Positions 33,809 through 59,279 of a stretch of 64,000 bases of DNA are shown one piece after another. The stretch lies in IMG/VR virus record IMGVR_UViG_3300020331_000002. One strand, written 5' to 3'. Each line of letters starts with the position of its first letter. Position 1 is the first letter of the stretch. Origin of the DNA: a virus (taxonomy: Duplodnaviria; Caudoviricetes). Under the pieces are notes generated by a model that was given only the letters and a program-made list of their open reading frames with translations, had not been told where the DNA came from and searched no databases. The translations under genes and the position numbers were made by a program.

Positions 33809-33905
33809 TAGTACCAGGTACGGGATTCGAACCCGCAGGGTCATTATTGCAGACCGCGACAAGCACTTCCGTGATGCCGCGCCTTCCCATTCGGCGCAAC
33901 CTAGT
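33809..33905 (-). ncRNA. atypical tRNA-like gene (CGG loop, A33, long variable arm, ACUA end)
   Basis: Paired acceptor, D and T arms; loop CACGGAA; about 25-nt variable region. Confidence 0.65.
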
Positions 33906-34783: not shown

Positions 34784-34862
34784 TGGTTGCAAGGGCGGGA
34801 TTTGAACCCGCGTCCGCTAGGGTTATGAGCCCTGCCATCTGCCAGACTGATTGTACCTTGCT
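34784..34862 (-). tRNA. initiator tRNA-fMet(CAU) #2
   Basis: A1:A72 mismatch, CAGGG/CCCUA AC stem, CCA. Confidence 0.85.
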
Positions 34863-34868
34863 ATTGTT

Positions 34869-34948
34869 TGGCGCGGCAGGTAGGAGTCGAACCCACATGT
34901 TTCCAATTACTCTTTCGACTGGTTCGTAGCCAGAGGAGATACAACCGC
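34869..34948 (-). ncRNA. rearranged tRNA-Arg(ACG)-like RNA lacking a 5' D arm
   Basis: Acceptor GCGGUUG/CUGCCGC-G-CCA, CUGG-CUACGAA-CCAG, D-loop-like UAAUUGG located 3' of anticodon arm. Confidence 0.7.
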
Positions 34949-38131: not shown

Positions 38132-38144
38132 AAAATATATTTTG

Positions 38145-38228
38145 CACAGCGGACGGGTCTCGAACCCGCAATGCGATATTCGCGCTGCCTTGAAAGGGCA
38201 GTGACTTTACCAGTTTGTCCACCGCTGT
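38145..38228 (-). tRNA. tRNA-Glu(UUC) with long variable arm, CCA not encoded
   Basis: CUGCC-CUUUCAA-GGCAG; variable GCGA-AUA-UCGC; ends G-CAA. Confidence 0.85.
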
Positions 38229-39643: not shown

Positions 39644-39728
39644 TGGTGGGTTGGGTGGGATTCGAACCCACGAAGCTTTACGCGCTAGATTAAAAGTCTA
39701 GTATCTTTAACCACTCGATCACCAACCC
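39644..39728 (-). tRNA. tRNA-Lys(UUU) with long variable arm
   Basis: CUAGA-CUUUUAA-UCUAG; 13-nt variable region; CCA. Confidence 0.88.
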
Positions 39729-39893: not shown

Positions 39894-39985
39894 TGGCGGA
39901 CGGTGCTGGATTTGAACCAGCGCGGGGGATATTCTCCACCTCCGGGTTAACAGCCCGGCGCAATCGGCCACTATGCGAACCGCCC
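39894..39985 (-). tRNA. tRNA-Asn(GUU) with long variable arm
   Basis: CCGGG-CUGUUAA-CCCGG; about 20-nt variable hairpin; CCA. Confidence 0.88.
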
Positions 39986-40863: not shown

Positions 40864-40918
40864 AGGCTAGTTTTTTTAAAACGCCAATGTTTTTTAAAAA
40901 AATTGCTGTTCCTAGCCT
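40864..40918 (-). ncRNA. AACAGCAA module copy A
   Basis: AGGCUAG-GAACAGCAA-[U7A4...U4A7 hairpin]-CUAGCCU. Confidence 0.75.
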
Positions 40919-40947
40919 AAGTCGTTTGTTCTAAAAACATGGTGTCT

Positions 40948-40975
40948 ATTATACATGCTTTTAAAACGTTGTCAA
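40948..40975 (-). promoter_or_regulatory. sigma70-like promoter driving module A
   Basis: TTGACA-N16-TATAAT. Confidence 0.8.
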
Positions 40976-41009
40976 GAACTTTTTTCAACTTTCTTGACTT
41001 TAATAAGTC

Positions 41010-41074
41010 GGGTTGCTTTTACTAGGTTCGAAGGATGAGTTCGAATTTTCGTAAAGTTTTGCTGTTAGCAACCC
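41010..41074 (-). ncRNA. AACAGCAA module copy B
   Basis: GGGUUGC-UAACAGCAA-[UUCGAA...UUCGAA hairpin region]-GCAACCC-GACUUA. Confidence 0.75.
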
Positions 41075-41304
41075 ATAATAGATATACACCGTGATGCACA
41101 TGTATTATGAGTAAAAATAGCAGCGAACTATCCAAAGGGTTGGGAGTTCTCCAGATAGTCGCTACCCAAGAGAGTGGATGAACACTCTAGACAAACAAAA
41201 TAAGTCGGGCTACATTATCTAAAGTCAAATTAAAAGTTTGATGATCGATAATATTGCTGTTAGTAGCCCATAATAGATATACACCGTGATGCACATGTAT
41301 TATG
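41072..41304. repeat. 38-nt perfect direct repeat (41072-41109 and 41267-41304), itself a hairpin
   Basis: cccataatagatatacaccgtgatgcacatgtattatg twice. Confidence 0.95.
41207..41269 (-). ncRNA. AACAGCAA module copy C
   Basis: GGGCUAC-UAACAGCAAU-[AUUAUC...GAUAAU]-GUAGCCC-GACUUA. Confidence 0.78.
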
Positions 41305-41449
41305 GGTTCTAACATTACACCCGGTTTTGGGTCCTAAATTGCCGTACTCCCGGGGTAACATTAAAAATTAACGCCGTATCCAAATATATGCGTTCAGGTC
41401 AAATCGGATAAAAATCACCTACTAACACATAAGAAGAACTTTGTTAAAC

Positions 41450-41513
41450 TGGATGCATTAAGTACTGGTTTGATTAGAAGTCAAAAGTAATTAAATGTTG
41501 CTGTTAGCATCCA
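41450..41513 (-). ncRNA. AACAGCAA module copy D
   Basis: UGGAUGC-UAACAGCAAC-[AUUUAAUUACU...AGUACUUAAU]-GCAUCCA. Confidence 0.78.
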
Positions 41514-41562: not shown

Positions 41563-41590
41563 ATTATACTTCATTTGATCGCTGTGTCTA
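41563..41590 (-). promoter_or_regulatory. sigma70-like promoter upstream of module D
   Basis: TAGACA-N16-TATAAT preceded by A/T tract. Confidence 0.65.
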
Positions 41591-42338: not shown

Positions 42339-42824
42339 TTACCAACCATGTGCACCGTACGAGAACCGGCCTCGCAAGAACTGTACCATCAAGCGCGGAG
42401 CAGGTATACGAGAATCAACGGGGACGAGTCTCATTGTCTCTGATTTCGGTGTGTCCCGAAAATCCTGATATTGATTTTGTCCATCAAAGTATATTGAACG
42501 CTCGGAGCCTTCTATTCGTAAATGGAAGCTATGCGGGCCTACAAACTGATAACTATCATCTGAAGTGCGATACTTTTTTGTGTCGCGGGCAAGAATTTTT
42601 ATACGATGTAAGCCCTCCATCACAGCACGAATTGACTGTATCAGACCCGCCGACGATACTTCCACGTTGCCCATTATTACTTGCTTAAGTAACTCTTCAT
42701 CATCAGTGCAATAGTAGTACCCTGAATTCGGTATAAGGCATTCAGAATTTACGATATGAATATTATCGTATGTTACTTTGACCTTTTTGAACAATAGCGC
42801 GTCGGATGGTATCGAAAGATCCAT
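42339..42824 (-). CDS. hypothetical protein (start uncertain)
   Basis: Open frame overlapping 3' end of cytidyltransferase gene. Confidence 0.5.
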   Translation of the reverse strand: MDLSIPSDALLFKKVKVTYDNIHIVNSECLIPNSGYYYCTDDEELLKQVIMGNVEVSSAGLIQSIRAVMEGLHRIKILARDTKKYRTSDDSYQFVGPHSFHLRIEGSERSIYFDGQNQYQDFRDTPKSETMRLVPVDSRIPAPRLMVQFLRGRFSYGAHGW

Positions 42825-43386
42825 TTTGTTCTCCGTATAGTTCTTCAAATACTTGGCGGGCTTGTGTTTCATCACCGCGTGATAGAAGCTCACGCAAGTC
42901 CGTAGAGTTGTATACATTACCAGTCGAGTTAACTACGTTGTCAATAACGATAACTTGACCTCGGGTGTCTGCGGCTTCCGTGCTATTATTAAACCGACGG
43001 TAGTATCCAAGCCCGCCGTCTTTCTTATGTGTTGTTCCGGCTTCGTCAAATTTGAAACGATCAACATCCTTTTCACCAACAGCGACAATATATCGTATCA
43101 TCTCAGGCTTGCGGCCTAGGCGTTCGATAACCAAGTCACTGCGCATTGGACTCGCCACTTCTATTACGTATTCAGAAGGGACTCCGCTGGCTACTATTAA
43201 TGATTTACGAGTTTCAAAATCAAGTGGGCTTCGCTCGTTTACGACATTACTCGTTGCAATATAACAGTGGCCGAATTGTTCGACTACTTTGTCGTATACT
43301 GCCTTGTGTCCGGGATGAAATGGCTGGAAACGACCGGGATAAACCGCGATCGTCTCAAGCTGTACTATGTCAGCAACCCGCATCAC
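42763..43386 (-). CDS. cytidyltransferase-like (HxGH) nucleotidyltransferase
   Basis: YPGRFQPFHPGH, AVGEKD, NSTDLR motifs. Confidence 0.88.
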   Translation of the reverse strand: MMRVADIVQLETIAVYPGRFQPFHPGHKAVYDKVVEQFGHCYIATSNVVNERSPLDFETRKSLIVASGVPSEYVIEVASPMRSDLVIERLGRKPEMIRYIVAVGEKDVDRFKFDEAGTTHKKDGGLGYYRRFNNSTEAADTRGQVIVIDNVVNSTGNVYNSTDLRELLSRGDETQARQVFEELYGEQNGSFDTIRRAIVQKGQSNIR

Positions 43387-44040: not shown

Positions 44041-47000
44041 TTAGCCTCTATAATATTTCGGATGTGCAATCTCTACCTGGAACTGAGGGTCTTGTTCAAA
44101 GAACTTATTAAAGTAATTATCCGGGATCGGCTTTTCAAACGCCGGTATTAAGTCAGCGACATCTTGCGGTGTAACATCAGGCTCAATCACAGGCCATTTA
44201 AAATCGAACGTATCGACACGGAATTTAACGGTATTGTCTATCTCCGGTATTATACCGTAACGTAATCGACCGTTTCTTCTCCCTTCAAGCGTCTGCGGTG
44301 CGTATTGGATAAGTCCGTCCTCTGCGACGATACGAACACCGTCGCCATACTTTAATTCTTCCAGTGCTGCTGTCGGCCACTCGACTGCCTCGACTTTCGC
44401 ATTACCTATATCAAGCACGGTAAGGACCCCGTCTACCGGATCATGTTCTTGCGCTTGTATAGGATGCATCTGCTTAAGTACGTCTGGCAGATCTGTAATA
44501 AGCGAGTTGGACGTAATCGTAACAAGATCCTGCCTATAATAATGATCTTCTACTGCGTAAACGTCGGCCGCCTCGTCGAACCTTGCCGGTATCATATCAG
44601 CTTTAAACACATATGGACGGTTTCCGACGTCGTCGAGCAGCATACCGACTACCGGTATGTATTTGTCGTGTTCTGCTAGTACTGATACTACAAGATGGCG
44701 CGCCCACACGTCTGATTCTAAGTGGTGATCTATGGCCTCAGGCGCTAAATCGTCTGCCTCATAGGATACCGCTACAGCCTTCATAATCGCTTGAGTGTCT
44801 GTAATATACGATTTTACTACCCTGTCAAATGAAACAGTACTGATATCGAATACCGGTCTGATGTCCAGATGCTCGGGAACATCGTCACGGTAGCCGGTTT
44901 TTAACGGCCCTGTATCGACATGAACCTTAAACGGGTTGTACATTAAAGCGACATTGTCGTGATGGTATAGATCTTCAACAGGGGTTTGCTTATCTGTGAG
45001 TACCCACTTATCGTCGAATATGGCTTCTACCAAACCAGGAACAGTAGCAACTTCGTGATCTATCTCATATGCCGTATGCTGATATTGTTGGTCTATTATG
45101 TAGAAAGTGCCTTGCAATCTAGTCGGCGCCGCTATTGCAGGGCGGGAATATACTGGCTTGCCGTCTACATGATAATAATAATCAAACACCTTATGTTCAA
45201 GGTGTTCCGGCATATGCTCCCAACCATTATAGTCGGGGTCATAACCAAAGAGCGTATCTATGTCACGGCGAGCGTATTGGCCCCAAACCGGAACCGACTC
45301 TGTCCATGGCGTGCCTTCATACGGGTTCCATGCTTCTATCGGCGTGCCGGGCGAAGACATATGCGGATCGGTTACGTGACCTACTCGCATCGGCTCAGGT
45401 TCGTAATCATCAGCTGACTGGAAATCGAAGCCCCACTCCAGGATAACAGGATCTGAATCCCTGTTATCGATGTCACCTGCGCCGAATTCTGTGCTCAAAA
45501 CGTAACGTGTATTCCGCGAAAGTACTGGCCGAAACACCGCGCGTTGTGCTGTGTTAGTCACAACAGGGCGCACTCTATCTAGCACCACGCCTTCGCTGTC
45601 TTTCAGAACTAGCCACTTGACGTCATCGGGGTTGGTAAACACAGTGTTGCCTTTAGCAAACAACACTGTCAGTTTTACTTCACGATCCTCGGTTTCAAAG
45701 TCTATGTCATTAGGGTAAACACTATACCCGTCAGGATCATCTAGCGAGTTTAAGATAATTCCTGCGCTAGAGGACGTAGAGTATAATCTATTTGCATTTA
45801 ATTCAGGCAGAGCATCAGCGCCATCATCGTACTTGGCATCTCTAGACCAACCTTTGAATTGGTGATCTAAGGTGTTAACCGGCGACGCTGCGTTGCCACT
45901 TGCTGCGGCTAGTAACTCAGGCACAGTTAGCGGCCAGTTATAGGCAGTAATATCCTGCACAACTAGGTTCGGGTTTATGTTTGCCAAACTACTCACTACA
46001 CCAAGTGACAGATGATGCGTGCGCATCATTCCTTGGTCAAGCGGCAGAGTTGTTTCTTGAATACAACGTTCATTTACATACACTCGTATCAGTCCTCTAT
46101 CATATACAATACTTATAAGAACTCGCTCGTTATATTTTGTTGCGCTTGCCATTGCTGTATGGATTCTATCAGCTACGTTCAGCTTTAGTGGACCATCGTT
46201 TACGTCTTTTACAAAAGCGCCGTCAGACGAAACACCGTCGCGCCATATACCGATTGTTCTCGGAAATATGTCATGCTCGGTCGGCACGCCCCACAATATA
46301 TCATGCTGTGCAAAAACGCCTATACCACCGTCTTGTGCTGGATTGTTGGTTTCTTGCCATGCATTAGTCCTGATACTCAAAGTCCATTGATCGTACGTCT
46401 GTGGCGCTAGAGCACAGCTATCTATACTATACCAACCAGCAGGATACATACCGTATGTGCCGTCTGGGAATTGATATTTCGCAGGGTCACCATTATTGCG
46501 CGAGTCCAAGTCAGTACGCTTAAATCGCAATACATCATAATACGTATTATCCGGTGTATCGAAAGACACCATCATCGAACGTCCTTTTTCTCGCGTATCC
46601 TTACCGACTAACGAATGGGCAAATACGAACCGTCTTATAGTAATTTCAGAACTCGGATCCTGGTGCGGGTCATAGAACTCTACTTTATACGTGCCGGCGT
46701 ATGGTACTTCTATATCATACCATCTAGACTCAGTCTCAACCGCAGGATCATATTCTGTGTCAGATATAATTTTAGCGGTTGTCAGGTTATGAAGTCGTAA
46801 CGTCGTGCGATCAGTGTTGCCATGTGTCGAGTCAATATACACACGCACTCGGGCAGGTCCAGAAGCTTGGAACGATACATATTCGCCATGCGCAAATACC
46901 AAATCAGTTCTATCTGATGAAAAGTCATATGCGGCATTTATTAGATTATTGACCGACTGTACTGCTGCCGAACGCACTACTACGTTAGATATATCAAGCA

Positions 47001-50000
47001 ACTCACCAGTCGGTGCAGCAACGCCGACCGTACCGATCACACTGTCGAGTATGTCCACCGCGTCATTACCGCCCAATTGAATAAACATCATATCAGTACC
47101 ATCAATTACCCTATCAAACACAATGAGGTCAGATACCGTGTCTGTGTAATCGTACGGCGACACAGGGAATATAACTGATTTCGGTGTCAGGTATAATGCC
47201 TCTGGGTTCACGTAGTCACTGATCACAAGACGGTTACCCAAGTAAATTTTAATGTTATCGCCGCGTACCGTATATGTTAGCCACAAATCGCCGTTGAGAT
47301 CTAAATCACCAGATTTTACTACCAGTAAATCGTCGCTAGCAACGCGCAGGTCAGTGCCGCCGAACAGTCTATTAGAGCGTGCATCAGTAGCATCATTTGA
47401 AAATTTAACAACCCATTCCTCTAGGCCTGACCCTGTGCCTTCTATATCGAAATTAGTTTGATTAGTCTTACCAATTCGCATAAAATCACGCACATTGACA
47501 GTCGAACCGACGGCCTTGTTTAACTTCAACACCACGGTATATTCATCTAGAACATCAGTTAAGCCAAATGCATCTAGAGTCATACCAAACCTGTTAGCTA
47601 GTTCGCCAGGCGTCCAGTTGTACACTGCACCATCAAGTGCCTTAGTACCTGCCGGTATACCTGTTCCTGTAGTTAAGTTGCTGATATATGTTGGCGAGTT
47701 TTCATTATTGGCCAGGTGCAAGACCCGACGAGTGACACCTTTGCCGGCGCCAATGGTCTCGATAACCAAATCGTTTGTTTCGTATACCAGAATGCTTTCT
47801 AATCTAGAATCGACCTGGTAATCAAAGTCGTTGGACATAGAGAACTTATACGTGCCCGGAGGTAGCAAGTCCGGCATTAACCATGTATCACCACCGACGT
47901 GCTTGAACGTAGGGTCATCCGTATCCGCTGTGGTCCAGGTGTCACCTGTTGCTATATTTTCTATGACCACAGGCGCGTGATACTCGTCTTTCGCGTTCCA
48001 GACAAGCTGCATGTACGACGGCTCATCTAAAGTGTATAACTGTGTGCCAAACTTTAACCTAGCATCTGTTTCTAATACAGCGCCGTGGAATCGGGTTGAG
48101 CGCTTGCCGCCGAAATCGCAGCGCCAGACGCGTTCCAGATTAAACCATCTACGACCGACGAAGTTATAATCACCCCACTGCCTAGTTGTATTTGAGCGAG
48201 TTGTGTTTGTTCTGTACCCGTCGTAAACTGGGTTCATATAGTATCCGTTTAAGCCGTCTTCGAATATATCGCCTGCAGGTATTCTATAAAACTGCATACC
48301 ACGCGGGATACCAGTGGCCGGGTGACTGAATTCATCATAGAATCCAGCGCGTGCACGAATCGCATGTACTTCGACCGGATCATCTGTCTTAAATTCAACA
48401 ACAAAGTACCCTGGATACAAGTATCGTTCTCGCCAATATGCTCGTCTACTTAACTTTGCTGCGGTAAGACTTGTAGTCGGTTCCATGTATTCGTCATGTA
48501 TGTTCGGGGCAACCCACGGACCTGTTTTCAAATAATTACTTGCGTCGCGTGGTATTGAGCTGCCGCCGGCTGCAAGTGGGTTACCTTTATACCCATATGC
48601 CAACGGATTTCCCAGATAGTTACCGAACTTGCCCGGTAGTTTTTGCATAAAGCCTGATGAGTTAGGGTCGTCTAGCGCCGACTCTATTAAACTAATCGTA
48701 TACGGTATAGGGTCGCCGTTCTTATCATAAAACGTAATTTCGCCTATCGTCGCACCAGTGTTATAGAAATTCCACCAGTAGTGTCCTGCATCATTAGTCT
48801 CTTCCCACGTAGGTTTGAGTTCAGGCACATCATTAACAGACGCAATAACAGGCATAGGACCCGGGTCAGGATTAGTAGACGGGTCGCTATCGTGGGCGTC
48901 TTTTGCAATTTGCCACTCAGCCTGTCGGCGCGCTTCCTCTGCTTGCCTGCGGTTTTCCCACTCATTTGCGTGCCAGGCGTTAGCATCGGAACGTGCACGG
49001 AAAACTTGAGTTCCAGATCCGTTACGTATCACGTCGTCTATATACGGCGGCTTTTCAACACCAATAACCATATATTTTGCAGTGAACACGTTTGTTTCGT
49101 TAACCGACGGACGATTCGCGCGAATCTGTTGCCTGTAAACCTCGCTCTCAGTATTAAACGGCCAGCCAGAATCTAACTGGTTTACGTTATCAGCTAGCAC
49201 GGTGGCGCCCTGTGTGGCTTTCCTGGTATTATACCAGTTGTTTAACATACCGATATACTGAAAGTTGCCTCCTTGTGCATCCTGGCCGCCAGTTACCCGT
49301 TTAGCAGTAACAATCTTGCCGTTTTCTGATACTGATACAAAGTTAAAGCCACCGTCGTGATGTAACGGACCCAGGCGTTCTAGATAAAACGCGTCACTTA
49401 TTGTAGTAGGCTCGGAAAATGTAAAAAGCAGGCCGTCAGTTATATCTATTTCGCGAGTAACAGTGATATAACCTACACCGCCGCCGTTATACAACAAATC
49501 GTCTGCAGAGAAGCCGGCGTATTGATCCGCAACCCAACCGTCACTTAAGCTCACAGTAAGATTCTCATACTCACTAACCTGTGATCCAGATGTTATTAAT
49601 GAGCCGTAATCATAAACGTAACCCTCTGCGTCAATAAACCCCCAAGCCCCTATGAACGCGTCAGACGGGCCGCTTGCTGTTGCGAAACCGGTTAATGCAA
49701 TATTCTTTATGGCAAGAACGTTGTCGGCGGGCTCAAAATACGACACAGATCTATTGGTGAAATATTCAAACGGTGCGTATAACAGGTCTTCTTTTGCCAT
49801 GCGTAAGCGTGCGCCCCAGCCAGGCGGGAGCGTAACCGCGGGAGCAAGGAGACCGGTAGTAAGATCGCCGTCTTCCAGGATAGTTCCGTAACCTGTATCA
49901 TAACCGTTTTTAGCTATCAATACTTGGTTGGTAGAAGCGTCTACCAGAAACTGTATAACGTCGCCTTTATAAAATCCAGGCACATCGAATGTCGTGGCCG

Positions 50001-50451
50001 AAACAGACCCGTTACTATAGACTGAGTTAGTTCTTGAATCATAACCCACACTCACTAAGCCTTGATCGAACTGCTTGTCGCCTAATGCGAATACGTTTAT
50101 TCTACGATCATTTAGAATACCTATATCAGCTAGACCAACACGCGCCGACCATTCATCGACTGAGTTTTCCGGGTAGGCTTCTGCTTCAGTAATTTCTATT
50201 TCAAAATAGAACAGTTTGTTAGTTTTAAAGTCAAGCACTGTATCAGCTAGAACCATACCGAAGCTTCGTTCAATTAACTCTAACTGAGGTGCGCTGCCGT
50301 AACTCACGTACGGATCGGAGTATGTATTCATTACAGACTCTTGGTCTTCCGATATAACAAATCTAGACTGCTTAGCATGTCTTGGTACCAAATCAGGATT
50401 AAAGCCTGGCTTTAGTGTAGAAGTGCTATGTGGTATTTTTAACTGTGCCAT
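44041..50451 (-). CDS. very large virion/tail protein with N-terminal SPRY and LamG-like domains
   Basis: 2136 aa; YFEIEI...RVGLA...GDVIQFLVD SPRY pattern; concanavalin-like repeats. Confidence 0.7.
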   Translation of the reverse strand: MAQLKIPHSTSTLKPGFNPDLVPRHAKQSRFVISEDQESVMNTYSDPYVSYGSAPQLELIERSFGMVLADTVLDFKTNKLFYFEIEITEAEAYPENSVDEWSARVGLADIGILNDRRINVFALGDKQFDQGLVSVGYDSRTNSVYSNGSVSATTFDVPGFYKGDVIQFLVDASTNQVLIAKNGYDTGYGTILEDGDLTTGLLAPAVTLPPGWGARLRMAKEDLLYAPFEYFTNRSVSYFEPADNVLAIKNIALTGFATASGPSDAFIGAWGFIDAEGYVYDYGSLITSGSQVSEYENLTVSLSDGWVADQYAGFSADDLLYNGGGVGYITVTREIDITDGLLFTFSEPTTISDAFYLERLGPLHHDGGFNFVSVSENGKIVTAKRVTGGQDAQGGNFQYIGMLNNWYNTRKATQGATVLADNVNQLDSGWPFNTESEVYRQQIRANRPSVNETNVFTAKYMVIGVEKPPYIDDVIRNGSGTQVFRARSDANAWHANEWENRRQAEEARRQAEWQIAKDAHDSDPSTNPDPGPMPVIASVNDVPELKPTWEETNDAGHYWWNFYNTGATIGEITFYDKNGDPIPYTISLIESALDDPNSSGFMQKLPGKFGNYLGNPLAYGYKGNPLAAGGSSIPRDASNYLKTGPWVAPNIHDEYMEPTTSLTAAKLSRRAYWRERYLYPGYFVVEFKTDDPVEVHAIRARAGFYDEFSHPATGIPRGMQFYRIPAGDIFEDGLNGYYMNPVYDGYRTNTTRSNTTRQWGDYNFVGRRWFNLERVWRCDFGGKRSTRFHGAVLETDARLKFGTQLYTLDEPSYMQLVWNAKDEYHAPVVIENIATGDTWTTADTDDPTFKHVGGDTWLMPDLLPPGTYKFSMSNDFDYQVDSRLESILVYETNDLVIETIGAGKGVTRRVLHLANNENSPTYISNLTTGTGIPAGTKALDGAVYNWTPGELANRFGMTLDAFGLTDVLDEYTVVLKLNKAVGSTVNVRDFMRIGKTNQTNFDIEGTGSGLEEWVVKFSNDATDARSNRLFGGTDLRVASDDLLVVKSGDLDLNGDLWLTYTVRGDNIKIYLGNRLVISDYVNPEALYLTPKSVIFPVSPYDYTDTVSDLIVFDRVIDGTDMMFIQLGGNDAVDILDSVIGTVGVAAPTGELLDISNVVVRSAAVQSVNNLINAAYDFSSDRTDLVFAHGEYVSFQASGPARVRVYIDSTHGNTDRTTLRLHNLTTAKIISDTEYDPAVETESRWYDIEVPYAGTYKVEFYDPHQDPSSEITIRRFVFAHSLVGKDTREKGRSMMVSFDTPDNTYYDVLRFKRTDLDSRNNGDPAKYQFPDGTYGMYPAGWYSIDSCALAPQTYDQWTLSIRTNAWQETNNPAQDGGIGVFAQHDILWGVPTEHDIFPRTIGIWRDGVSSDGAFVKDVNDGPLKLNVADRIHTAMASATKYNERVLISIVYDRGLIRVYVNERCIQETTLPLDQGMMRTHHLSLGVVSSLANINPNLVVQDITAYNWPLTVPELLAAASGNAASPVNTLDHQFKGWSRDAKYDDGADALPELNANRLYSTSSSAGIILNSLDDPDGYSVYPNDIDFETEDREVKLTVLFAKGNTVFTNPDDVKWLVLKDSEGVVLDRVRPVVTNTAQRAVFRPVLSRNTRYVLSTEFGAGDIDNRDSDPVILEWGFDFQSADDYEPEPMRVGHVTDPHMSSPGTPIEAWNPYEGTPWTESVPVWGQYARRDIDTLFGYDPDYNGWEHMPEHLEHKVFDYYYHVDGKPVYSRPAIAAPTRLQGTFYIIDQQYQHTAYEIDHEVATVPGLVEAIFDDKWVLTDKQTPVEDLYHHDNVALMYNPFKVHVDTGPLKTGYRDDVPEHLDIRPVFDISTVSFDRVVKSYITDTQAIMKAVAVSYEADDLAPEAIDHHLESDVWARHLVVSVLAEHDKYIPVVGMLLDDVGNRPYVFKADMIPARFDEAADVYAVEDHYYRQDLVTITSNSLITDLPDVLKQMHPIQAQEHDPVDGVLTVLDIGNAKVEAVEWPTAALEELKYGDGVRIVAEDGLIQYAPQTLEGRRNGRLRYGIIPEIDNTVKFRVDTFDFKWPVIEPDVTPQDVADLIPAFEKPIPDNYFNKFFEQDPQFQVEIAHPKYYRG

Positions 50452-55877: not shown

Positions 55878-56078
55878 ATGACACAGTTACTAGCAGATAT
55901 CAAAGCGTTTTGTTTAGCACACTACGAAGAAGGTTATGATTCTTGTGTAGAGTGCTGGGACGACAAAGATTATGTTGAGTTCATCGAAGAGTGGGGTGTC
56001 AAATCAGTTGACGATTTTGTTAAAGAATACGCCCCGATAATCAGTCACGCTAACGAAATCCGCAGCACTGCCTTTTAG
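55878..56078 (+). CDS. hypothetical protein (early)
   Basis: 66 aa, promoter at 55813-55841. Confidence 0.7.
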   Translation: MTQLLADIKAFCLAHYEEGYDSCVECWDDKDYVEFIEEWGVKSVDDFVKEYAPIISHANEIRSTAF

Positions 56079-56097
56079 TGCTGCAAGGAGTCTTGAT

Positions 56098-56388
56098 ATG
56101 CCATCGCCAAATATACCGCAAGAACTTCGTCAAGCTTGGGCCGAAATACATGGGTTCAAGCTACGTGAAATGATCAAAGCCGAATGCCCTGATGTTGAAG
56201 TACGTTCGTGTGACTCAAAACGACGTCACTATAAACTGAAAGGCAAAGTGCGAACTGTCAACTTGTACGCGTCAACGGGTACAATATCAGTCGAACCGCA
56301 CGGTGATATGAAAGGTTTTAACCAACGTTTAATGATGCCAGAACGCGCAATTAAACGAGCTGTTACTATAGCGAACATCGGCTACTAA
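56098..56388 (+). CDS. hypothetical protein
   Basis: 96 aa, AAGGAG RBS. Confidence 0.7.
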   Translation: MPSPNIPQELRQAWAEIHGFKLREMIKAECPDVEVRSCDSKRRHYKLKGKVRTVNLYASTGTISVEPHGDMKGFNQRLMMPERAIKRAVTIANIGY

Positions 56389-56412
56389 AAACTGTCACTT
56401 ATTTCAGCCAAC

Positions 56413-56440
56413 AAAAAAGCCGCTCGAAAGCGGCTTTTTT
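56413..56440. terminator. bidirectional terminator
   Basis: A6-GCCGCT-CGAA-AGCGGC-T6. Confidence 0.85.
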
Positions 56441-56462
56441 CATCTTAGCTATTCAACTAGGA

Positions 56463-59279
56463 TTATGAGTTGCGGTATTCAACTACAACCACACCTGCAC
56501 CTTCTGTCGCGCCATTCGGAGTAACAGTGAACTGAGCAGTAACGTCAGAGCCACCCACAGTAACAAGAGGAGTAGTTTCGAACACACCTTGTACTTCAGG
56601 ATCGTTTTCGTCAGCTGACATGTACACCACAGCAGAGCTGTCGTCGAACAATACTTCAGCAGCAGTATCAGCGATGCTGTTAACTTTGAAGCTAACGCGC
56701 ATAACAGTAGATCCTGCAGGGATAGTACCAAGTGACACAGTGCCCGCCGCAGTTAGATCAACAGCCGCACTTAGTGAAGCAATAGATCCAGGTACTACGT
56801 TACCAGCAATTTCTTCGTCAACGTATGCTTTGGTTACAAGCGTTGTATCAGTACCAGAAGTACGGATGTCAGCAGCAACGTCAGCAGAGTCGTTAGCGAT
56901 GTCGATTAGACCAGTACCCTTAGTAGCAAGAGTAAGACCAACATCAGTGTCAGAACCAGTTGCGCGTAATACAGGAGCAACGCCAGCAGCACCAGCAACA
57001 AACTCAAGGTTGTTTACCGCGCCTGCAGGAGAGTTAGCAACTTCAGCAACAAGGTTGCCGTTCGCGTCAATTAGCTTAACAGTACCGTTGGTACCTGTGC
57101 CAGAAGCAGAACCACCACGTAGTTCAACATCACCAGCTTGGCCGTCTTCAGCAGCACCACCAGAGATTACAACATCACCAGCGTTTTGGTTACCGGTGTT
57201 TTCACCAGCCTCAATTACAAGAGACTCACCAGTGTCGGCAGTAATTGCACCCGCGCCGCCAGAACCAATAATTACTTCGCCAGAGCCGTTAGGAAGAAGA
57301 ACTAAGTCTTGGTCCGCGCCTAGTGTAGTAATAGTGTTTCCAGAGATGTTGATGTCTGCAACATCTAGGCCGCCAGCAGCGTCGATGTCAACTTTGTCAT
57401 TTACTGAGTCGTAAATTACGCCAGCGCTTTGGTCGAAATCACCACTTGCGTCAGTGAATACTAGACCACCATCTACTGTAAGAGTAGAGTCAGCAAGACC
57501 AGCCGCAGAGAATGTGCCGCCAACTGATAGGTTACCAACAACATCAGCGTCGCCGCCTACGTCAAGGTTACCAGAGAAATCACCAGCGCCAGTTACTGTT
57601 AGTACGCCTGCAGAAAACGCCAGTGCCGCGTCGTCAACAAGTTGTCCATTAGCGCCAGCAAGTACTAGGCGACCAGAGGTTAAGTTAGCAGCTTCAACAG
57701 TGTCACCTTTAACAACTGTAGAAGAAAGTGCACCAGTAGCAGAGTCGAACGTAAAGGCTGCGTCGTCAACTAGTTGGCCGTTAGCGCCTGCAAATACTAC
57801 ACGACCTTCAGCAAGGTTAGATGCAATAATTTGGTTAGCTTGTAGGCCAGATGCATCCCAAACACCTGCTTGTACGCCATCAACAGTAATAGTGATCGCG
57901 CCAGTTCCTGAATCAGATACTGCTACACTTGTATCGCCTTCTTCAATAGAGTTAGCAGACGTGTAGTTGTCGCCGATATAAGTACCAAGCGTGTCAAGAG
58001 TTACTTTTTCGTTTGCGCCAGTTGAAGCGTTAAAGAACACAACTTCGTCTAGTACATCAAGAGCTTCTGCCGCAGCAGTTAAGCCATTAATGTCAAGACC
58101 AACAGTCATGTTACCAGATACGCCGTCGCCGTTAGCGATTACGATACCAGCTTCATCAGCAGCACTAGATGCTTCTAGTGTACGAGATGCATAAGTACCA
58201 GCCGCTGTGCGAACTAGAATGCCGTCAGCAGTCGCGCTTACTAGGTCTTTGTCGGCCAATAGTTGGTTGAAAGAGATCTTTTCAATTGTACCGCCGTTGT
58301 TAACGATAACTTCTTGTGAACCGTCAGCCGGTGCAGTTACCGCAGCAAGTGAAGCAAAGTCAAAAGAAAGAGTTGGGTCGCCAGCGATGCCGTCTGCGTT
58401 AGTCCATACTAGGCCGTCACCTGATTGGAAAGTACGAGATGCATAAGTGTCGTCAGCAGTGCGTGCAACGAAACCATCTGCGCTGATGCCTTTAACTACG
58501 TCAAGCGAGTTGATCATGCTTGCGATAGTAGTCTTAGCCATTGTGCCAGTTGACGCGTCGTAAATTGCGATTTCGTCAGCTTCAGCAGCCACAGCAGACG
58601 CAAGACCAACAGTGTAGTCTAGTTCAACAGTGTTGCCGGTTAGGCTAATACCAGTGTCAGTATTGATTTGGCCAGCTTCAGAGAACTGAACCCAAACAAT
58701 TGCATCAGTGTTAAGATCAATAAGACCAGAACCTTGAACCACCCAACCAGTAGTTGCGCCAGCGGCACCTTGTTCTACGAATACGAAGTTACCGGCTGAA
58801 ACTTCAGCAGCAGGTGAACCGTCTTGGTCCAATGCACGTTGCCATACGCCGTCAGCGCCAGTACCCGCTGTAACTACTTCGTAGATACCATTTTGTAGAG
58901 TGTCAGTTTGGTTCTTAACAAGAACACGATCACCGTCTACAAGAGTTTCGCCGTCTACTACATTAGGAGCAGCAGTAAAGCCACCAGTAGAGTTAGCACC
59001 AGCTGATGCGTCGTAAGTTGCGCCAAGGTCAGCAGTAGTCGCAACACGCACTGAGCCTTTAGGGTCAAGACCAGCAGAAAGGCTGTCTACATACTCTTTA
59101 GTCGTTGCGTCAGATGCGTTTACCGGTGTTGCAACTTGTACACGAGACAGTGTAGAACCATCTTTCGCTGTAGCCTTAAAGGTACCATTGGCTGTGTCAA
59201 ATCCTAGTTTACCGCCGCCTTTGCCAAGCTGTAAACTAGAGCCAACACCCTTAATGCTATAATTAATAATATCAGACAT
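56463..59279 (-). CDS. large Gly/Ala/Thr-rich virion structural (fibre/decoration) protein
   Basis: DATTKEYVD, SVRVATT, DRVLVKNQ....NGIY motifs; start re-called at MSDII (AAGGAG RBS); strong highly-expressed codon bias. Confidence 0.8.
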   Translation of the reverse strand: MSDIINYSIKGVGSSLQLGKGGGKLGFDTANGTFKATAKDGSTLSRVQVATPVNASDATTKEYVDSLSAGLDPKGSVRVATTADLGATYDASAGANSTGGFTAAPNVVDGETLVDGDRVLVKNQTDTLQNGIYEVVTAGTGADGVWQRALDQDGSPAAEVSAGNFVFVEQGAAGATTGWVVQGSGLIDLNTDAIVWVQFSEAGQINTDTGISLTGNTVELDYTVGLASAVAAEADEIAIYDASTGTMAKTTIASMINSLDVVKGISADGFVARTADDTYASRTFQSGDGLVWTNADGIAGDPTLSFDFASLAAVTAPADGSQEVIVNNGGTIEKISFNQLLADKDLVSATADGILVRTAAGTYASRTLEASSAADEAGIVIANGDGVSGNMTVGLDINGLTAAAEALDVLDEVVFFNASTGANEKVTLDTLGTYIGDNYTSANSIEEGDTSVAVSDSGTGAITITVDGVQAGVWDASGLQANQIIASNLAEGRVVFAGANGQLVDDAAFTFDSATGALSSTVVKGDTVEAANLTSGRLVLAGANGQLVDDAALAFSAGVLTVTGAGDFSGNLDVGGDADVVGNLSVGGTFSAAGLADSTLTVDGGLVFTDASGDFDQSAGVIYDSVNDKVDIDAAGGLDVADINISGNTITTLGADQDLVLLPNGSGEVIIGSGGAGAITADTGESLVIEAGENTGNQNAGDVVISGGAAEDGQAGDVELRGGSASGTGTNGTVKLIDANGNLVAEVANSPAGAVNNLEFVAGAAGVAPVLRATGSDTDVGLTLATKGTGLIDIANDSADVAADIRTSGTDTTLVTKAYVDEEIAGNVVPGSIASLSAAVDLTAAGTVSLGTIPAGSTVMRVSFKVNSIADTAAEVLFDDSSAVVYMSADENDPEVQGVFETTPLVTVGGSDVTAQFTVTPNGATEGAGVVVVEYRNS

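What the first reader, a model, noticed from the sequence alone, without database searches (positions are those of the whole stretch)
40864..41513. Array of four structured RNA modules with an invariant unpaired AACAGCAA bulge
An ORF-free 650-bp stretch just upstream of the tRNA cluster holds four minus-strand copies of one fold: a 7-bp stem, then (U/G)AACAGCAA unpaired on the 5' side, a variable AU-rich hairpin, and the closing stem strand. The stems differ in sequence yet always pair (AGGCUAG/CUAGCCU, GGGUUGC/GCAACCC, GGGCUAC/GUAGCCC, UGGAUGC/GCAUCCA), which is covariation within one genome. Copies A and D sit just behind their own sigma70-like promoters, and GACUUA flanks A, B and C. I recognise no named RNA family here. 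Inference: a protein-binding or processing RNA motif such as a decoy/sponge, an antitoxin mimic, or a Y-RNA-like partner of a Ro60/RtcB RNA-repair system.
Basis: partly seen in the sequence, partly recalled or inferred. Interest (0 to 1): 0.92.

Follow-up and report, generated by a model that had tools for sequence, protein, structure and literature searches.

The report
Phage Y-like RNAs for Ro60-like protein
The four repeated RNA folds are real and belong to a widespread family of small phage RNAs, missing from Rfam, that travels with a Ro60-like ring protein (a Y-RNA-type partnership); in this marine jumbo phage their tips copy the anticodon loops of three tRNAs.

Summary
Observation confirmed. 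Exactly four minus-strand modules have a perfect 7-bp closing stem, an unpaired (U/G)AACAGCAA and a variable hairpin (shuffles give 0.2).

The same "handle" (covarying 7-bp stem, [U][A/U]ACAGCAA, an A-rich 3' side, then G) occurs in at least 82 distinct copies with 56 different stems in 28 viral loci. Its cargo is either a short hairpin, as here, or a YrlA-type tRNA-like domain that gives sub-threshold Rfam YrlA hits.

The handle RNAs lie directly beside a DUF2828/vWA "Ro-like" gene in mycobacteriophage Zakai, Listeria phage LP-124, Campylobacter phage CP81 and E. coli phage JH2. 17 of 19 module-bearing viral records encode that protein; the other two are fragments. This phage has one about 140 kb away, and its AlphaFold model matches only Ro60 structures at full length.

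Best reading (0.72): four short, YrlB-like Y RNAs that partner the phage Ro60-like protein. Three tips equal the phage's own tRNA-Arg, Lys and Met anticodon loops.

They do not reach the Rfam YrlA threshold and lack the published GNCGAA motif, so this is a new variant of a known kind. Binding and function are inferred.

This scan found the same family earlier on other phage DNA. I found no published description in the searchable library.

The parts
41563..41590 (-). Sigma-70-like promoter upstream of module D (TAGACA, 16 nt, TATAAT)
   Evidence: 11 of 12 consensus positions. The -10 hexamer ends 50 nt before the first base of D's stem.
41450..41513 (-). Module D: stem UGGAUGC/GCAUCCA, unpaired UAACAGCAA, irregular inner helix, 5-bp apical stem with loop CUUCUAA; G at 41449 follows
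   Evidence: 77.6 bits. The loop is identical to the anticodon loop of the phage's tRNA-Arg(UCU).
41264..41310 (-). About 40-nt hairpin just 5' of module C; its 3' arm uses the GGG that also starts C's closing stem
   Evidence: repeat D1, inverted repeat I3.: -18.7 kcal/mol, z -4.8. A role as a processing site or alternative fold is inferred.
41207..41269 (-). Module C: stem GGGCUAC/GUAGCCC, UAACAGCAA, helix AUUAUC/GAUAAU, 5x5 internal loop, 5-bp apical stem with loop CUUUUAA; G at 41206
   Evidence: 85 bits. The loop is identical to the anticodon loop of the phage's tRNA-Lys(UUU).
41111..41167 (-). Stable hairpin followed by UAUUUUUAC between C and B: terminator-like or processing element
   Evidence: -22.4 kcal/mol, z -3.8. 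Not listed by the terminator scan, so its role is inferred.
41068..41115 (-). Second copy of the roughly 40-nt hairpin, just 5' of module B
   Evidence: repeat D1, 94% identical; inverted repeat I4.: -16.8 kcal/mol, z -4.4.
41010..41074 (-). Module B: stem GGGUUGC/GCAACCC, UAACAGCAA, helix UUUAC/GUAAA, apical stem with loop CUCAUCC (CUCAUAA in the sister genome); G at 41009
   Evidence: 92.3 bits; five substitutions cluster in the apical hairpin. The sister haplotype's loop equals the tRNA-Met anticodon loop.
40948..40975 (-). Sigma-70 consensus promoter upstream of module A (TTGACA, 16 nt, TATAAT)
   Evidence: 12 of 12 consensus positions.
40864..40918 (-). Module A: stem AGGCUAG/CUAGCCU, GAACAGCAA, 11-bp AU helix, 10-nt loop; followed by GUUUUAUU
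   Evidence: 33.5 bits, E 2e-4, found by a model that did not include it. Compensatory one-base-pair deletion in the sister genome.

Best explanation
The four modules are genes for small (about 55-70 nt) Y-RNA-like RNAs of the short, YrlB-like kind. They are transcribed from the minus strand from two sigma-70-type promoters and are probably trimmed to the closing stem.

Each RNA has a constant handle: a 7-bp terminal stem whose sequence is free to vary, the single-stranded UAACAGCAA on the 5' side, an A-rich 3' side, and a G after the stem. I infer that the handle is the docking site for the phage's own Ro60-like ring protein (DUF2828 helical domain plus a MIDAS vWA domain). That protein is encoded about 140 kb away in the same genome.

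The variable head is what the particle displays. In three of the four RNAs it is a 5-bp stem with a 7-nt loop identical to the anticodon loops of the phage's tRNA-Arg(UCU), tRNA-Lys(UUU) and tRNA-Met(CAU).

Bacterial Rsr-Y RNA-PNPase particles and the Thermus phage Ro60-Yrl-PNPase complex are the working analogies. On that basis, the RNAs most likely act as adaptors that tether the Ro-like ring to another RNA-handling enzyme, or as baits that hold a protein which reads tRNA anticodon arms.

Shown here: the fold, its covariation, family membership, co-occurrence with the Ro-like gene, and the Ro60 fold of that protein. Inferred: binding, processing, and the role of the heads.
For: Structure:
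- Perfect stems in four copies against 0.2 expected by chance.
- The motif is unpaired in the folds.
- A compensatory indel occurs in the sister genome.
- Across 45 distinct aligned family members, all 7 closing-stem pairs change on both sides; 98.7% of cells are paired, against 29-49% when the 3' partner is slid.

Family:
- One tandem-motif scan of IMG/VR gave 47 loci. The model finds about 50 matches in them.
- There are 82 distinct perfect-stem modules with 56 different stems. C is at stem position 7 in 67 of 82, and G follows the stem in 76 of 82.
- Long members carry a T arm, a closed acceptor stem and a D arm, and hit Rfam YrlA at 31-48 bits, below the threshold of 69.

Partner protein:
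- Cassettes directly flank the Ro-like gene in mycobacteriophage Zakai, Listeria phage LP-124, E. coli phage JH2 and Campylobacter phage CP81.
- A homolog is present in 17 of 19 module-bearing viral records; the two without one are fragments.
- This phage's copy (G001 55895-57268) gives a model with pLDDT 92. The top 13 PDB matches are all Ro60, full length, with E 1e-9 to 3e-5. The MIDAS motif DxSGSM is invariant.

Literature:
- Y RNAs with tRNA-like domains lie next to Ro60 genes in bacteria and mycobacteriophages, alongside short hairpin forms with small pyrimidine-rich loops (PMC4201824).
- A phage Ro60 binds Y-like RNAs and host PNPase (PMC12135203).
- Three highly transcribed regions lie within 2 kb upstream of the Rsr-like gene of a P100-like Listeria phage (PMC12282133). 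In the related phage LP-124, three handle RNAs lie directly upstream of the homologous gene.

Heads: the loops equal the phage's own tRNA anticodon loops.
Against: - No binding data exist for any handle RNA with any DUF2828-type protein.
- In this genome the RNAs and the protein gene are about 140 kb apart. The classical criterion is less than 2 kb and the same strand.
- The handle motif is not the published Ro-binding motif (GGUCCGA or GNCGAAN0-1G).
- The four RNAs do not hit Rfam YrlA at all.
- Pfam TROVE and phmmer against PDB do not recognise the protein. Its kinship to Ro60 rests on predicted fold and domain order.
- Transcription is not proven. Metatranscriptome contigs cover the region, but they could stem from DNA in the libraries.
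- Anticodon-like loops are seen in only part of the short family members elsewhere.
Confidence: 0.72

Rival explanations
1. The RNAs are decoys in their own right. They mimic anticodon arms to soak up host tRNA-cutting defence nucleases or tRNA-modifying enzymes. The handle serves only for stability or is bound by some other protein, independent of the Ro-like protein.
For: Three heads have 5-bp stems with 7-nt loops identical to the anticodon loops of tRNA-Arg(UCU), Lys(UUU) and Met(CAU). The protein gene is unlinked in this genome. Five substitutions cluster in B's head between two 98%-identical genomes, which looks like fast evolution at the displayed part.
Against: The invariant part is the handle, not the head. 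The handle tracks the Ro-like gene closely (17 of 19 records, with direct adjacency in four lineages). Many short members elsewhere have heads that do not resemble anticodon loops. This reading is also compatible with the best explanation if the decoy is displayed on a Ro particle.
Confidence: 0.12
2. The modules act in cis as processing or termination structures of the transcript that runs into the tRNA cluster. They would punctuate RNase cleavage and not be stand-alone functional RNAs.
For: They lie just upstream of a 23-tRNA cluster on the same strand. They are interleaved with stable hairpins and U-runs. 43 of 82 family members have a tRNA within 1 kb.
Against: An invariant 8-9-nt single-stranded motif with freely covarying stems across phages of many bacterial phyla is not expected of mere punctuation. 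Two modules have their own consensus promoters. Related cassettes carry complete tRNA-like domains known from Y RNAs.
Confidence: 0.06
3. The unpaired AAC-AGC-AA run is an (A-R-N)n site for the distal face of host Hfq, and the array is a CrcZ-like Hfq sponge.
For: The motif reads as three A-R-N triplets and is presented single-stranded four times. This rests on the sequence and on general knowledge of Hfq sites.
Against: The exact motif is kept in phages of Mycobacterium, Listeria and Campylobacter, where Hfq is absent or of a different type. A loose A-R-N requirement would not keep CAGCAA invariant.
Confidence: 0.03
4. The modules are minimal, armless tRNAs or pieces of permuted tRNA genes that are cut and ligated into working tRNAs.
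For: A 7-bp stem, anticodon-like loops and a length near 65 nt. Long relatives look like circularly permuted tRNAs when rotated.
Against: There is no CCA and no D or T arm, whereas about 19 of the 23 genuine tRNAs in this window encode CCA. The 'permuted tRNA' layout is exactly the known YrlA tRNA-like domain (PMC4201824). No RtcB was detected.
Confidence: 0.03

Closest known systems
Bacterial and phage Y RNAs bound by Ro60/Rsr: YrlA, YrlB, Yrn1/2 (Chen et al. 2014, PMC4201824; Rfam RF02553) and Yrl1/2 of Thermus phage phiLo (PMC12135203)
   Same: Small RNAs whose 5' and 3' ends form a stem next to a conserved unpaired motif. They are encoded in genomes with a Ro60-fold protein, often in several copies and near tRNAs. 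One subclass has a tRNA-like domain (T arm, closed acceptor stem, D arm). [quoted passage not shown]
   Different: The conserved motif is (U)(A/U)ACAGCAA as a 5' bulge, not GGUCCGA or GNCGAAN0-1G. The partner protein is the DUF2828/DUF7788 branch, which Pfam TROVE does not recognise. The four RNAs here give no Rfam YrlA match at all. They lie 140 kb from the protein gene. No binding has been shown.
Class I RNAs of Dictyostelia (PMC7919456; search pattern GTTGRCCTTACAGCAA ... GTCAACTG in PMC5054030)
   Same: They are 42-65 nt long. A short terminal stem covaries. A conserved, largely unpaired motif directly 3' of the 5' stem strand ends in ACAGCAA. The rest is variable. A short conserved tail follows the 3' stem strand.
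   Different: They are eukaryotic nuclear genes with a DUSE promoter and a 6-bp stem, and their known binding protein is an RRM protein. They were reported as unique to Dictyostelia. No Rfam family matched the window's modules at E<=10; whether Rfam holds a Class I model was not checked. Shared ancestry or a shared partner was not tested here.
tRNA anticodon stem-loops
   Same: Three heads have a 5-bp stem and a 7-nt loop of the form C-U-NNN-A-A, identical to the loops of the phage's tRNA-Arg(UCU), tRNA-Lys(UUU) and tRNA-Met(CAU).
   Different: The stem sequences differ from those tRNAs. There are no D or T arms and no CCA. Module A has a 10-nt loop that is not anticodon-like.

Membership tests
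Y RNA (Ro60 partner RNAs, broad sense) | The 5' and 3' ends pair into a stem that adjoins a conserved unpaired or bulged segment and a variable remainder | tested here: met
   Folds. Covariation of all 7 stem pairs across 45 distinct members. 82 modules with 56 different stems.
Y RNA (Ro60 partner RNAs, broad sense) | Carries the published Ro-binding motif (GGUCCGA in animals, GNCGAAN0-1G in bacteria; PMC4201824) | tested here: not met
   The motif here is UAACAGCAA or GAACAGCAA. Family variants all keep CAGCAA.
Y RNA (Ro60 partner RNAs, broad sense) | A Ro60 ortholog is encoded in the same genome, classically within about 2 kb on the same strand | tested here: inconclusive
   A Ro60-fold protein is present in this phage, but about 140 kb away. 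The gene is adjacent to handle RNAs in Zakai, LP-124, CP81 and JH2. It is present in 17 of 19 module-bearing records.
Y RNA (Ro60 partner RNAs, broad sense) | Physically bound and stabilised by Ro60 | not testable with these tools
   This needs pull-down, gel shift or a structure.
YrlA (Rfam RF02553) | tRNA-like domain with T arm, closed acceptor stem and D arm; score at or above the gathering threshold (69 bits) | tested here: not met
   No YrlA match in the region, the window or the whole sister genome. Long relatives with the same handle score 31-48 bits.
ACAGCAA-handle phage RNAs (no published name found; seen repeatedly by this scan) | 7-bp covarying terminal stem ending in C, then U, then (A/U)ACAGCAA unpaired, an A-rich run before the 3' strand, and G after it | tested here: met
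   All four copies fit.
Dictyostelid Class I RNA | 6-bp terminal stem, 11-nt motif CCUUACAGCAA, CUGU tail, DUSE promoter, dictyostelid nuclear gene | tested here: inconclusive
   The stem plus ACAGCAA layout is shared (PMC5054030, PMC7919456). The promoter and host criteria do not apply. No Rfam family matched at E<=10.
tRNA | Cloverleaf with D and T arms, and CCA or a processable 3' end | tested here: not met
   ARAGORN in its standard tRNA mode finds none here, even at lowered threshold; its permissive mitochondrial mode calls a few. No CCA, while most real tRNAs of the window encode it.
Type III antitoxin RNA arrays (ToxI-like) | Near-identical short tandem repeats next to an endoribonuclease toxin gene | tested here: not met
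   The units share only the motif; stems and heads differ and spacing is irregular at 156-244 nt. Neighbouring ORFs gave no such family. A toxin was not searched for exhaustively.

The most novel reading that the evidence does not exclude
The ACAGCAA handle marks a second, very large and so far undescribed branch of Ro/Y-RNA particles. The partner protein is found in 709 cultured phages, and its family has about 6,000 clusters at 50% identity (E<=0.001) in metagenomes. On this reading the variable heads are a display rack for tRNA parts: whole tRNA elbows in the long forms and, in this jumbo phage, anticodon arms of Arg, Lys and Met. These heads would serve as baits or shields against host tRNA-targeting defences. 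The same handle in Dictyostelium Class I RNAs would reflect a shared protein partner or a transfer between phage or bacteria and amoebae.
Probability: 0.15. Interest if true: 0.85.

Novelty: new variant of a known kind. Interest (0 to 1): 0.66.

Why it matters
Ro60 with its Y RNAs is a classic RNA-surveillance particle whose bacterial and viral roles are still unclear. Here the RNA half of a much larger phage branch becomes recognisable by a simple signature: a covarying stem plus ACAGCAA. That allows hundreds of phage genomes to be annotated, including workhorses such as Felix O1-type coliphages, P100-like Listeria phages and Campylobacter phages.

It gives a likely identity to the highly abundant unexplained transcripts reported next to the Rsr-like gene of a Listeria phage. 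It also offers tractable systems for asking what a viral Ro particle does.

In this jumbo phage the RNAs display exact copies of anticodon loops. That points to a concrete, testable link between Ro-like particles and the conflict over tRNAs between phages and hosts.

Tried and rejected
- **Rfam.** Nothing on the region at E<=10.
- **blastn against cultured phages.** No hit for the region in near or distant mode. No tblastn hit for two large neighbouring proteins.
- **Close relatives.** They gave only one other haplotype, in two records (IMG/VR UViG_3300020380_000001 and a Tara contig).
- **Neighbouring nucleotidyltransferase.** Distant homologs led to unrelated contexts without modules.
- **Armless or minimal tRNA.** ARAGORN in its standard tRNA mode finds nothing here; in permissive mitochondrial mode it calls some, but there is no CCA and no arms. 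Rejected.
- **Permuted tRNA genes needing cleavage and ligation.** For a while the best fit for the long relatives. Replaced once the layout was recognised as the YrlA tRNA-like domain. No RtcB was detected in five genomes. An Rnl2-type ligase domain is present in all five, but its link to the RNAs is unknown.
- **Pfam TROVE searches of module-bearing records.** All negative, including known Ro-like mycobacteriophages, so that model is too narrow.
- **phmmer against PDB.** Negative.
- **Metatranscriptome contigs.** They cover the region in four runs from three studies. They break at the 54-nt repeat and cannot prove transcription, ends or strand.
- **Hfq-sponge idea.** Rejected on host range.
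- **Complex prediction.** Not used, because it does not take RNA.

Full report
**What is there.**
Read on the minus strand, the stretch 40864-41513 holds four units of one design:
- a 7-bp closing stem;
- one spacer base, U in three units and G in one;
- the octamer AACAGCAA;
- a variable inner hairpin;
- the complementary stem strand, followed by G.

The octamer occurs six times on the minus strand of the 64-kb window and never on the plus strand; four of the six are here. A scan for CAGCAA preceded by a 7-nt strand with a perfect Watson-Crick partner 12-130 nt downstream returns exactly these four. 200 shuffles give a mean of 0.2 and at most 2. Folding leaves the octamer unpaired in all four.

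Two near-consensus sigma-70 promoters sit upstream of D and A. Stable roughly 40-nt hairpins precede C and B and compete with the first three stem pairs.

**Source and close relatives.**
The window belongs to an uncultured marine jumbo phage. An IMG/VR record of 306.5 kb with terminal repeats and a Tara Oceans contig are about 98% identical in this region. A covariance model built from B, C and D finds A and nothing else in the window or in that whole genome.

The two haplotypes differ in two informative ways. Module A lost one U and one A from opposite arms of its AU helix, which is a compensatory change. Module B has five substitutions packed into its apical hairpin. These turn the loop CUCAUCC (window) into CUCAUAA (sister genome).

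**The heads.**
Modules D, C and B end in a 5-bp stem (a sixth pair can form in B) with a 7-nt loop: CUUCUAA, CUUUUAA and CUCAUAA/CUCAUCC. These loops are letter for letter the anticodon loops of the phage's own tRNA-Arg(UCU), tRNA-Lys(UUU) and tRNA-Met(CAU), although the stems differ. The modules are not tRNAs. They have no D or T arm and no CCA, whereas about 19 of the 23 genuine tRNAs in the window encode CCA.

**The family.**
One scan of IMG/VR for two CTAACAGCAA motifs 170-200 nt apart returned 47 loci. The model found about 50 matches in them. My own scan counts 82 distinct modules with perfect 7-bp stems in 28 loci:
- 56 different stem sequences;
- C at stem position 7 in 67 of 82;
- an A-rich run before the 3' strand;
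- G after the stem in 76 of 82.

On the model-based alignment all seven stem pairs show changes on both sides. 98.7% of cells are paired, against 29-49% when the 3' partner is slid. That alignment is fitted to the model, so it leans that way. The independent perfect-stem scan agrees.

The cargo is short (27-50 nt) in 55 modules and long in 27. The long ones first looked like circularly permuted tRNAs: anticodon-like hairpin, T arm, acceptor 3' strand, short linker, acceptor 5' strand, D arm.

**Identification.**
Part of the loci are cluster L mycobacteriophages. In phage Zakai three cassettes, short, long and short, lie immediately downstream of the gene annotated 'Ro-like RNA binding protein'. 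The long cassettes match Rfam YrlA below threshold, at 31-48 bits against 69.

YrlA is the bacterial Y RNA whose tRNA-like domain has exactly this T arm, closed acceptor stem and D arm order. It was reported next to Ro60 genes in more than 250 bacteria and 22 phages, together with shorter hairpin Y RNAs that have small pyrimidine-rich loops (PMC4201824). So the 'permuted tRNAs' are Y-RNA tRNA mimics, and the window's four RNAs correspond to the short form.

**The protein partner.**
The Zakai protein hits Pfam DUF2828 and DUF7788 (vWA-like), not TROVE. This explains why TROVE searches of 19 module-bearing records found nothing. Searching with the protein itself, or with a profile, finds a homolog in 17 of 19 of those records. 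The two without one are fragments of 6 kb and of 37% completeness.

This phage's copy lies at 55.9-57.3 kb of the sister genome, about 140 kb from the RNAs. Its AlphaFold model (pLDDT 92, pTM 0.90) matches Ro60 structures from Thermus phage phiLo, Deinococcus, Xenopus and human as the top 13 PDB hits. These matches run over the full length, and vWA domains alone follow. A DxSGSM MIDAS motif is invariant.

The family has about 6,100 clusters at 50% identity (E<=0.001) in a 1.84-billion-protein library. It occurs in 709 cultured phage genomes: Felix O1-type, Listeria P100-like, Campylobacter, Vibrio, Staphylococcus, Enterococcus and cluster L mycobacteriophages.

Handle RNAs lie directly beside the gene in Listeria phage LP-124 (three, upstream), Campylobacter phage CP81 (two, upstream) and E. 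coli phage JH2 (three, downstream, one with a tRNA-like domain). Their motif variants are UUACAGCAA, CUACAGCAA, ACACAGCAA and AUUCAGCAA, so CAGCAA is the invariant core.

A multi-omics study of a P100-like Listeria phage reported three very highly transcribed regions within 2 kb upstream of its Rsr-like gene and guessed that they might be Y RNAs (PMC12282133). In the related phage LP-124, three cassettes lie directly upstream of the homologous gene. I did not lay them on that study's coordinates.

**Mechanism.**
- *Shown:* a conserved, covarying RNA fold; a family-wide handle; tight genomic association with a Ro60-fold protein; tRNA-like or anticodon-like heads.
- *Inferred:* the handle docks on the Ro-like ring, and the heads are displayed to recruit or trap a second factor.

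The working analogies are Y RNA tethering Rsr to PNPase in bacteria (PMC4201824) and Yrl RNAs forming a ternary complex with phiLo Ro60 and host PNPase (PMC12135203). Whether the anticodon-loop heads act as adaptors or as decoys for tRNA-targeting defence enzymes cannot be decided here. No RtcB was detected in five genomes. An Rnl2-type ligase domain is present in all five.

Expression evidence is weak. Contigs of four metatranscriptomic runs from three studies cover the region, but contigs cannot exclude DNA carry-over and they break at the internal repeat.

**Comparison and novelty.**
The RNAs work like Y RNAs but fail two membership tests. They lack the published GNCGAA-type motif and they do not reach, or even touch, the Rfam YrlA model. 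The partner is a Ro60 branch that Pfam files as a domain of unknown function.

In the searchable literature I found no description of the ACAGCAA handle in phages.

The same layout, a short terminal stem followed by CCUUACAGCAA, defines the Class I RNAs of Dictyostelium (pattern in PMC5054030; features in PMC7919456). Earlier reports of this scan raised that lead. I verified it only at the level of the motif.

Those earlier reports had already found the same RNA-protein pairing in Felix O1-type and gut phages. I reached the Ro/Y reading independently before reading them.

My verdict is a new variant of a known kind. The particular points of this window are:
- only short forms are present;
- the RNAs are unlinked from the protein gene;
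- they are placed at the head of the tRNA cluster;
- three heads copy anticodon loops.

Noticed in passing
window 41010-41074 versus L001 7183-7255: Five of the roughly 32 substitutions that separate two 98%-identical genomes over 2 kb fall within 20 nt of module B's apical hairpin. They switch the loop between CUCAUCC and the canonical tRNA-Met loop CUCAUAA. A third, more divergent metatranscriptome haplotype shares the sister-genome state at the two of these positions its contig covers.
   Followed up: partly
window 44041-50451 (-): A 2136-aa ORF without any Pfam, PHROG or cultured-phage match is only 82% identical to its counterpart in the sister genome, while the DNA at the RNA array is about 98% identical. 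It looks like a hypervariable giant protein.
   Followed up: no
window 38144-38228, 39644-39728, 39894-39985, 33811-33905 (-): Several tRNAs that normally have short variable loops (Glu, Lys, Asn, Pro) are 85-95 nt long.
   Followed up: no
window 42763-43386 (-): A 206-aa cytidylyltransferase-like (PF01467, weak) protein lies 1.3 kb upstream of the RNA array. Distant homologs (30-36% identity) occur in other large phage contigs, but in different contexts.
   Followed up: partly
L069 6300-7511 (Listeria phage LP-124): An RtcB-like RNA ligase gene lies 1.3 kb downstream of the DUF2828 Ro-like gene and its three handle RNAs. This echoes the bacterial rsr-yrlBA-rtcBA arrangement. No RtcB was detected in the five other genomes checked.
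   Followed up: partly
L071 3325-3462 (Campylobacter phage CP81); L063 2719-2789 (mycobacteriophage Zakai): Public annotations mislabel handle RNAs. A small hypothetical ORF overlaps the CP81 cassettes, and the tRNA-like domain of Zakai's long cassette is annotated as tRNA-Thr.
   Followed up: partly
window 34784-34898 (-): A weak tmRNA-like Rfam match (24.9 bits, below threshold) lies inside the tRNA cluster.
   Followed up: no
G001 63259-64065 (sister genome, outside the window): A 693-aa ORF with an Rnl2-type RNA ligase domain lies about 6 kb from the Ro-like gene.
   Followed up: no
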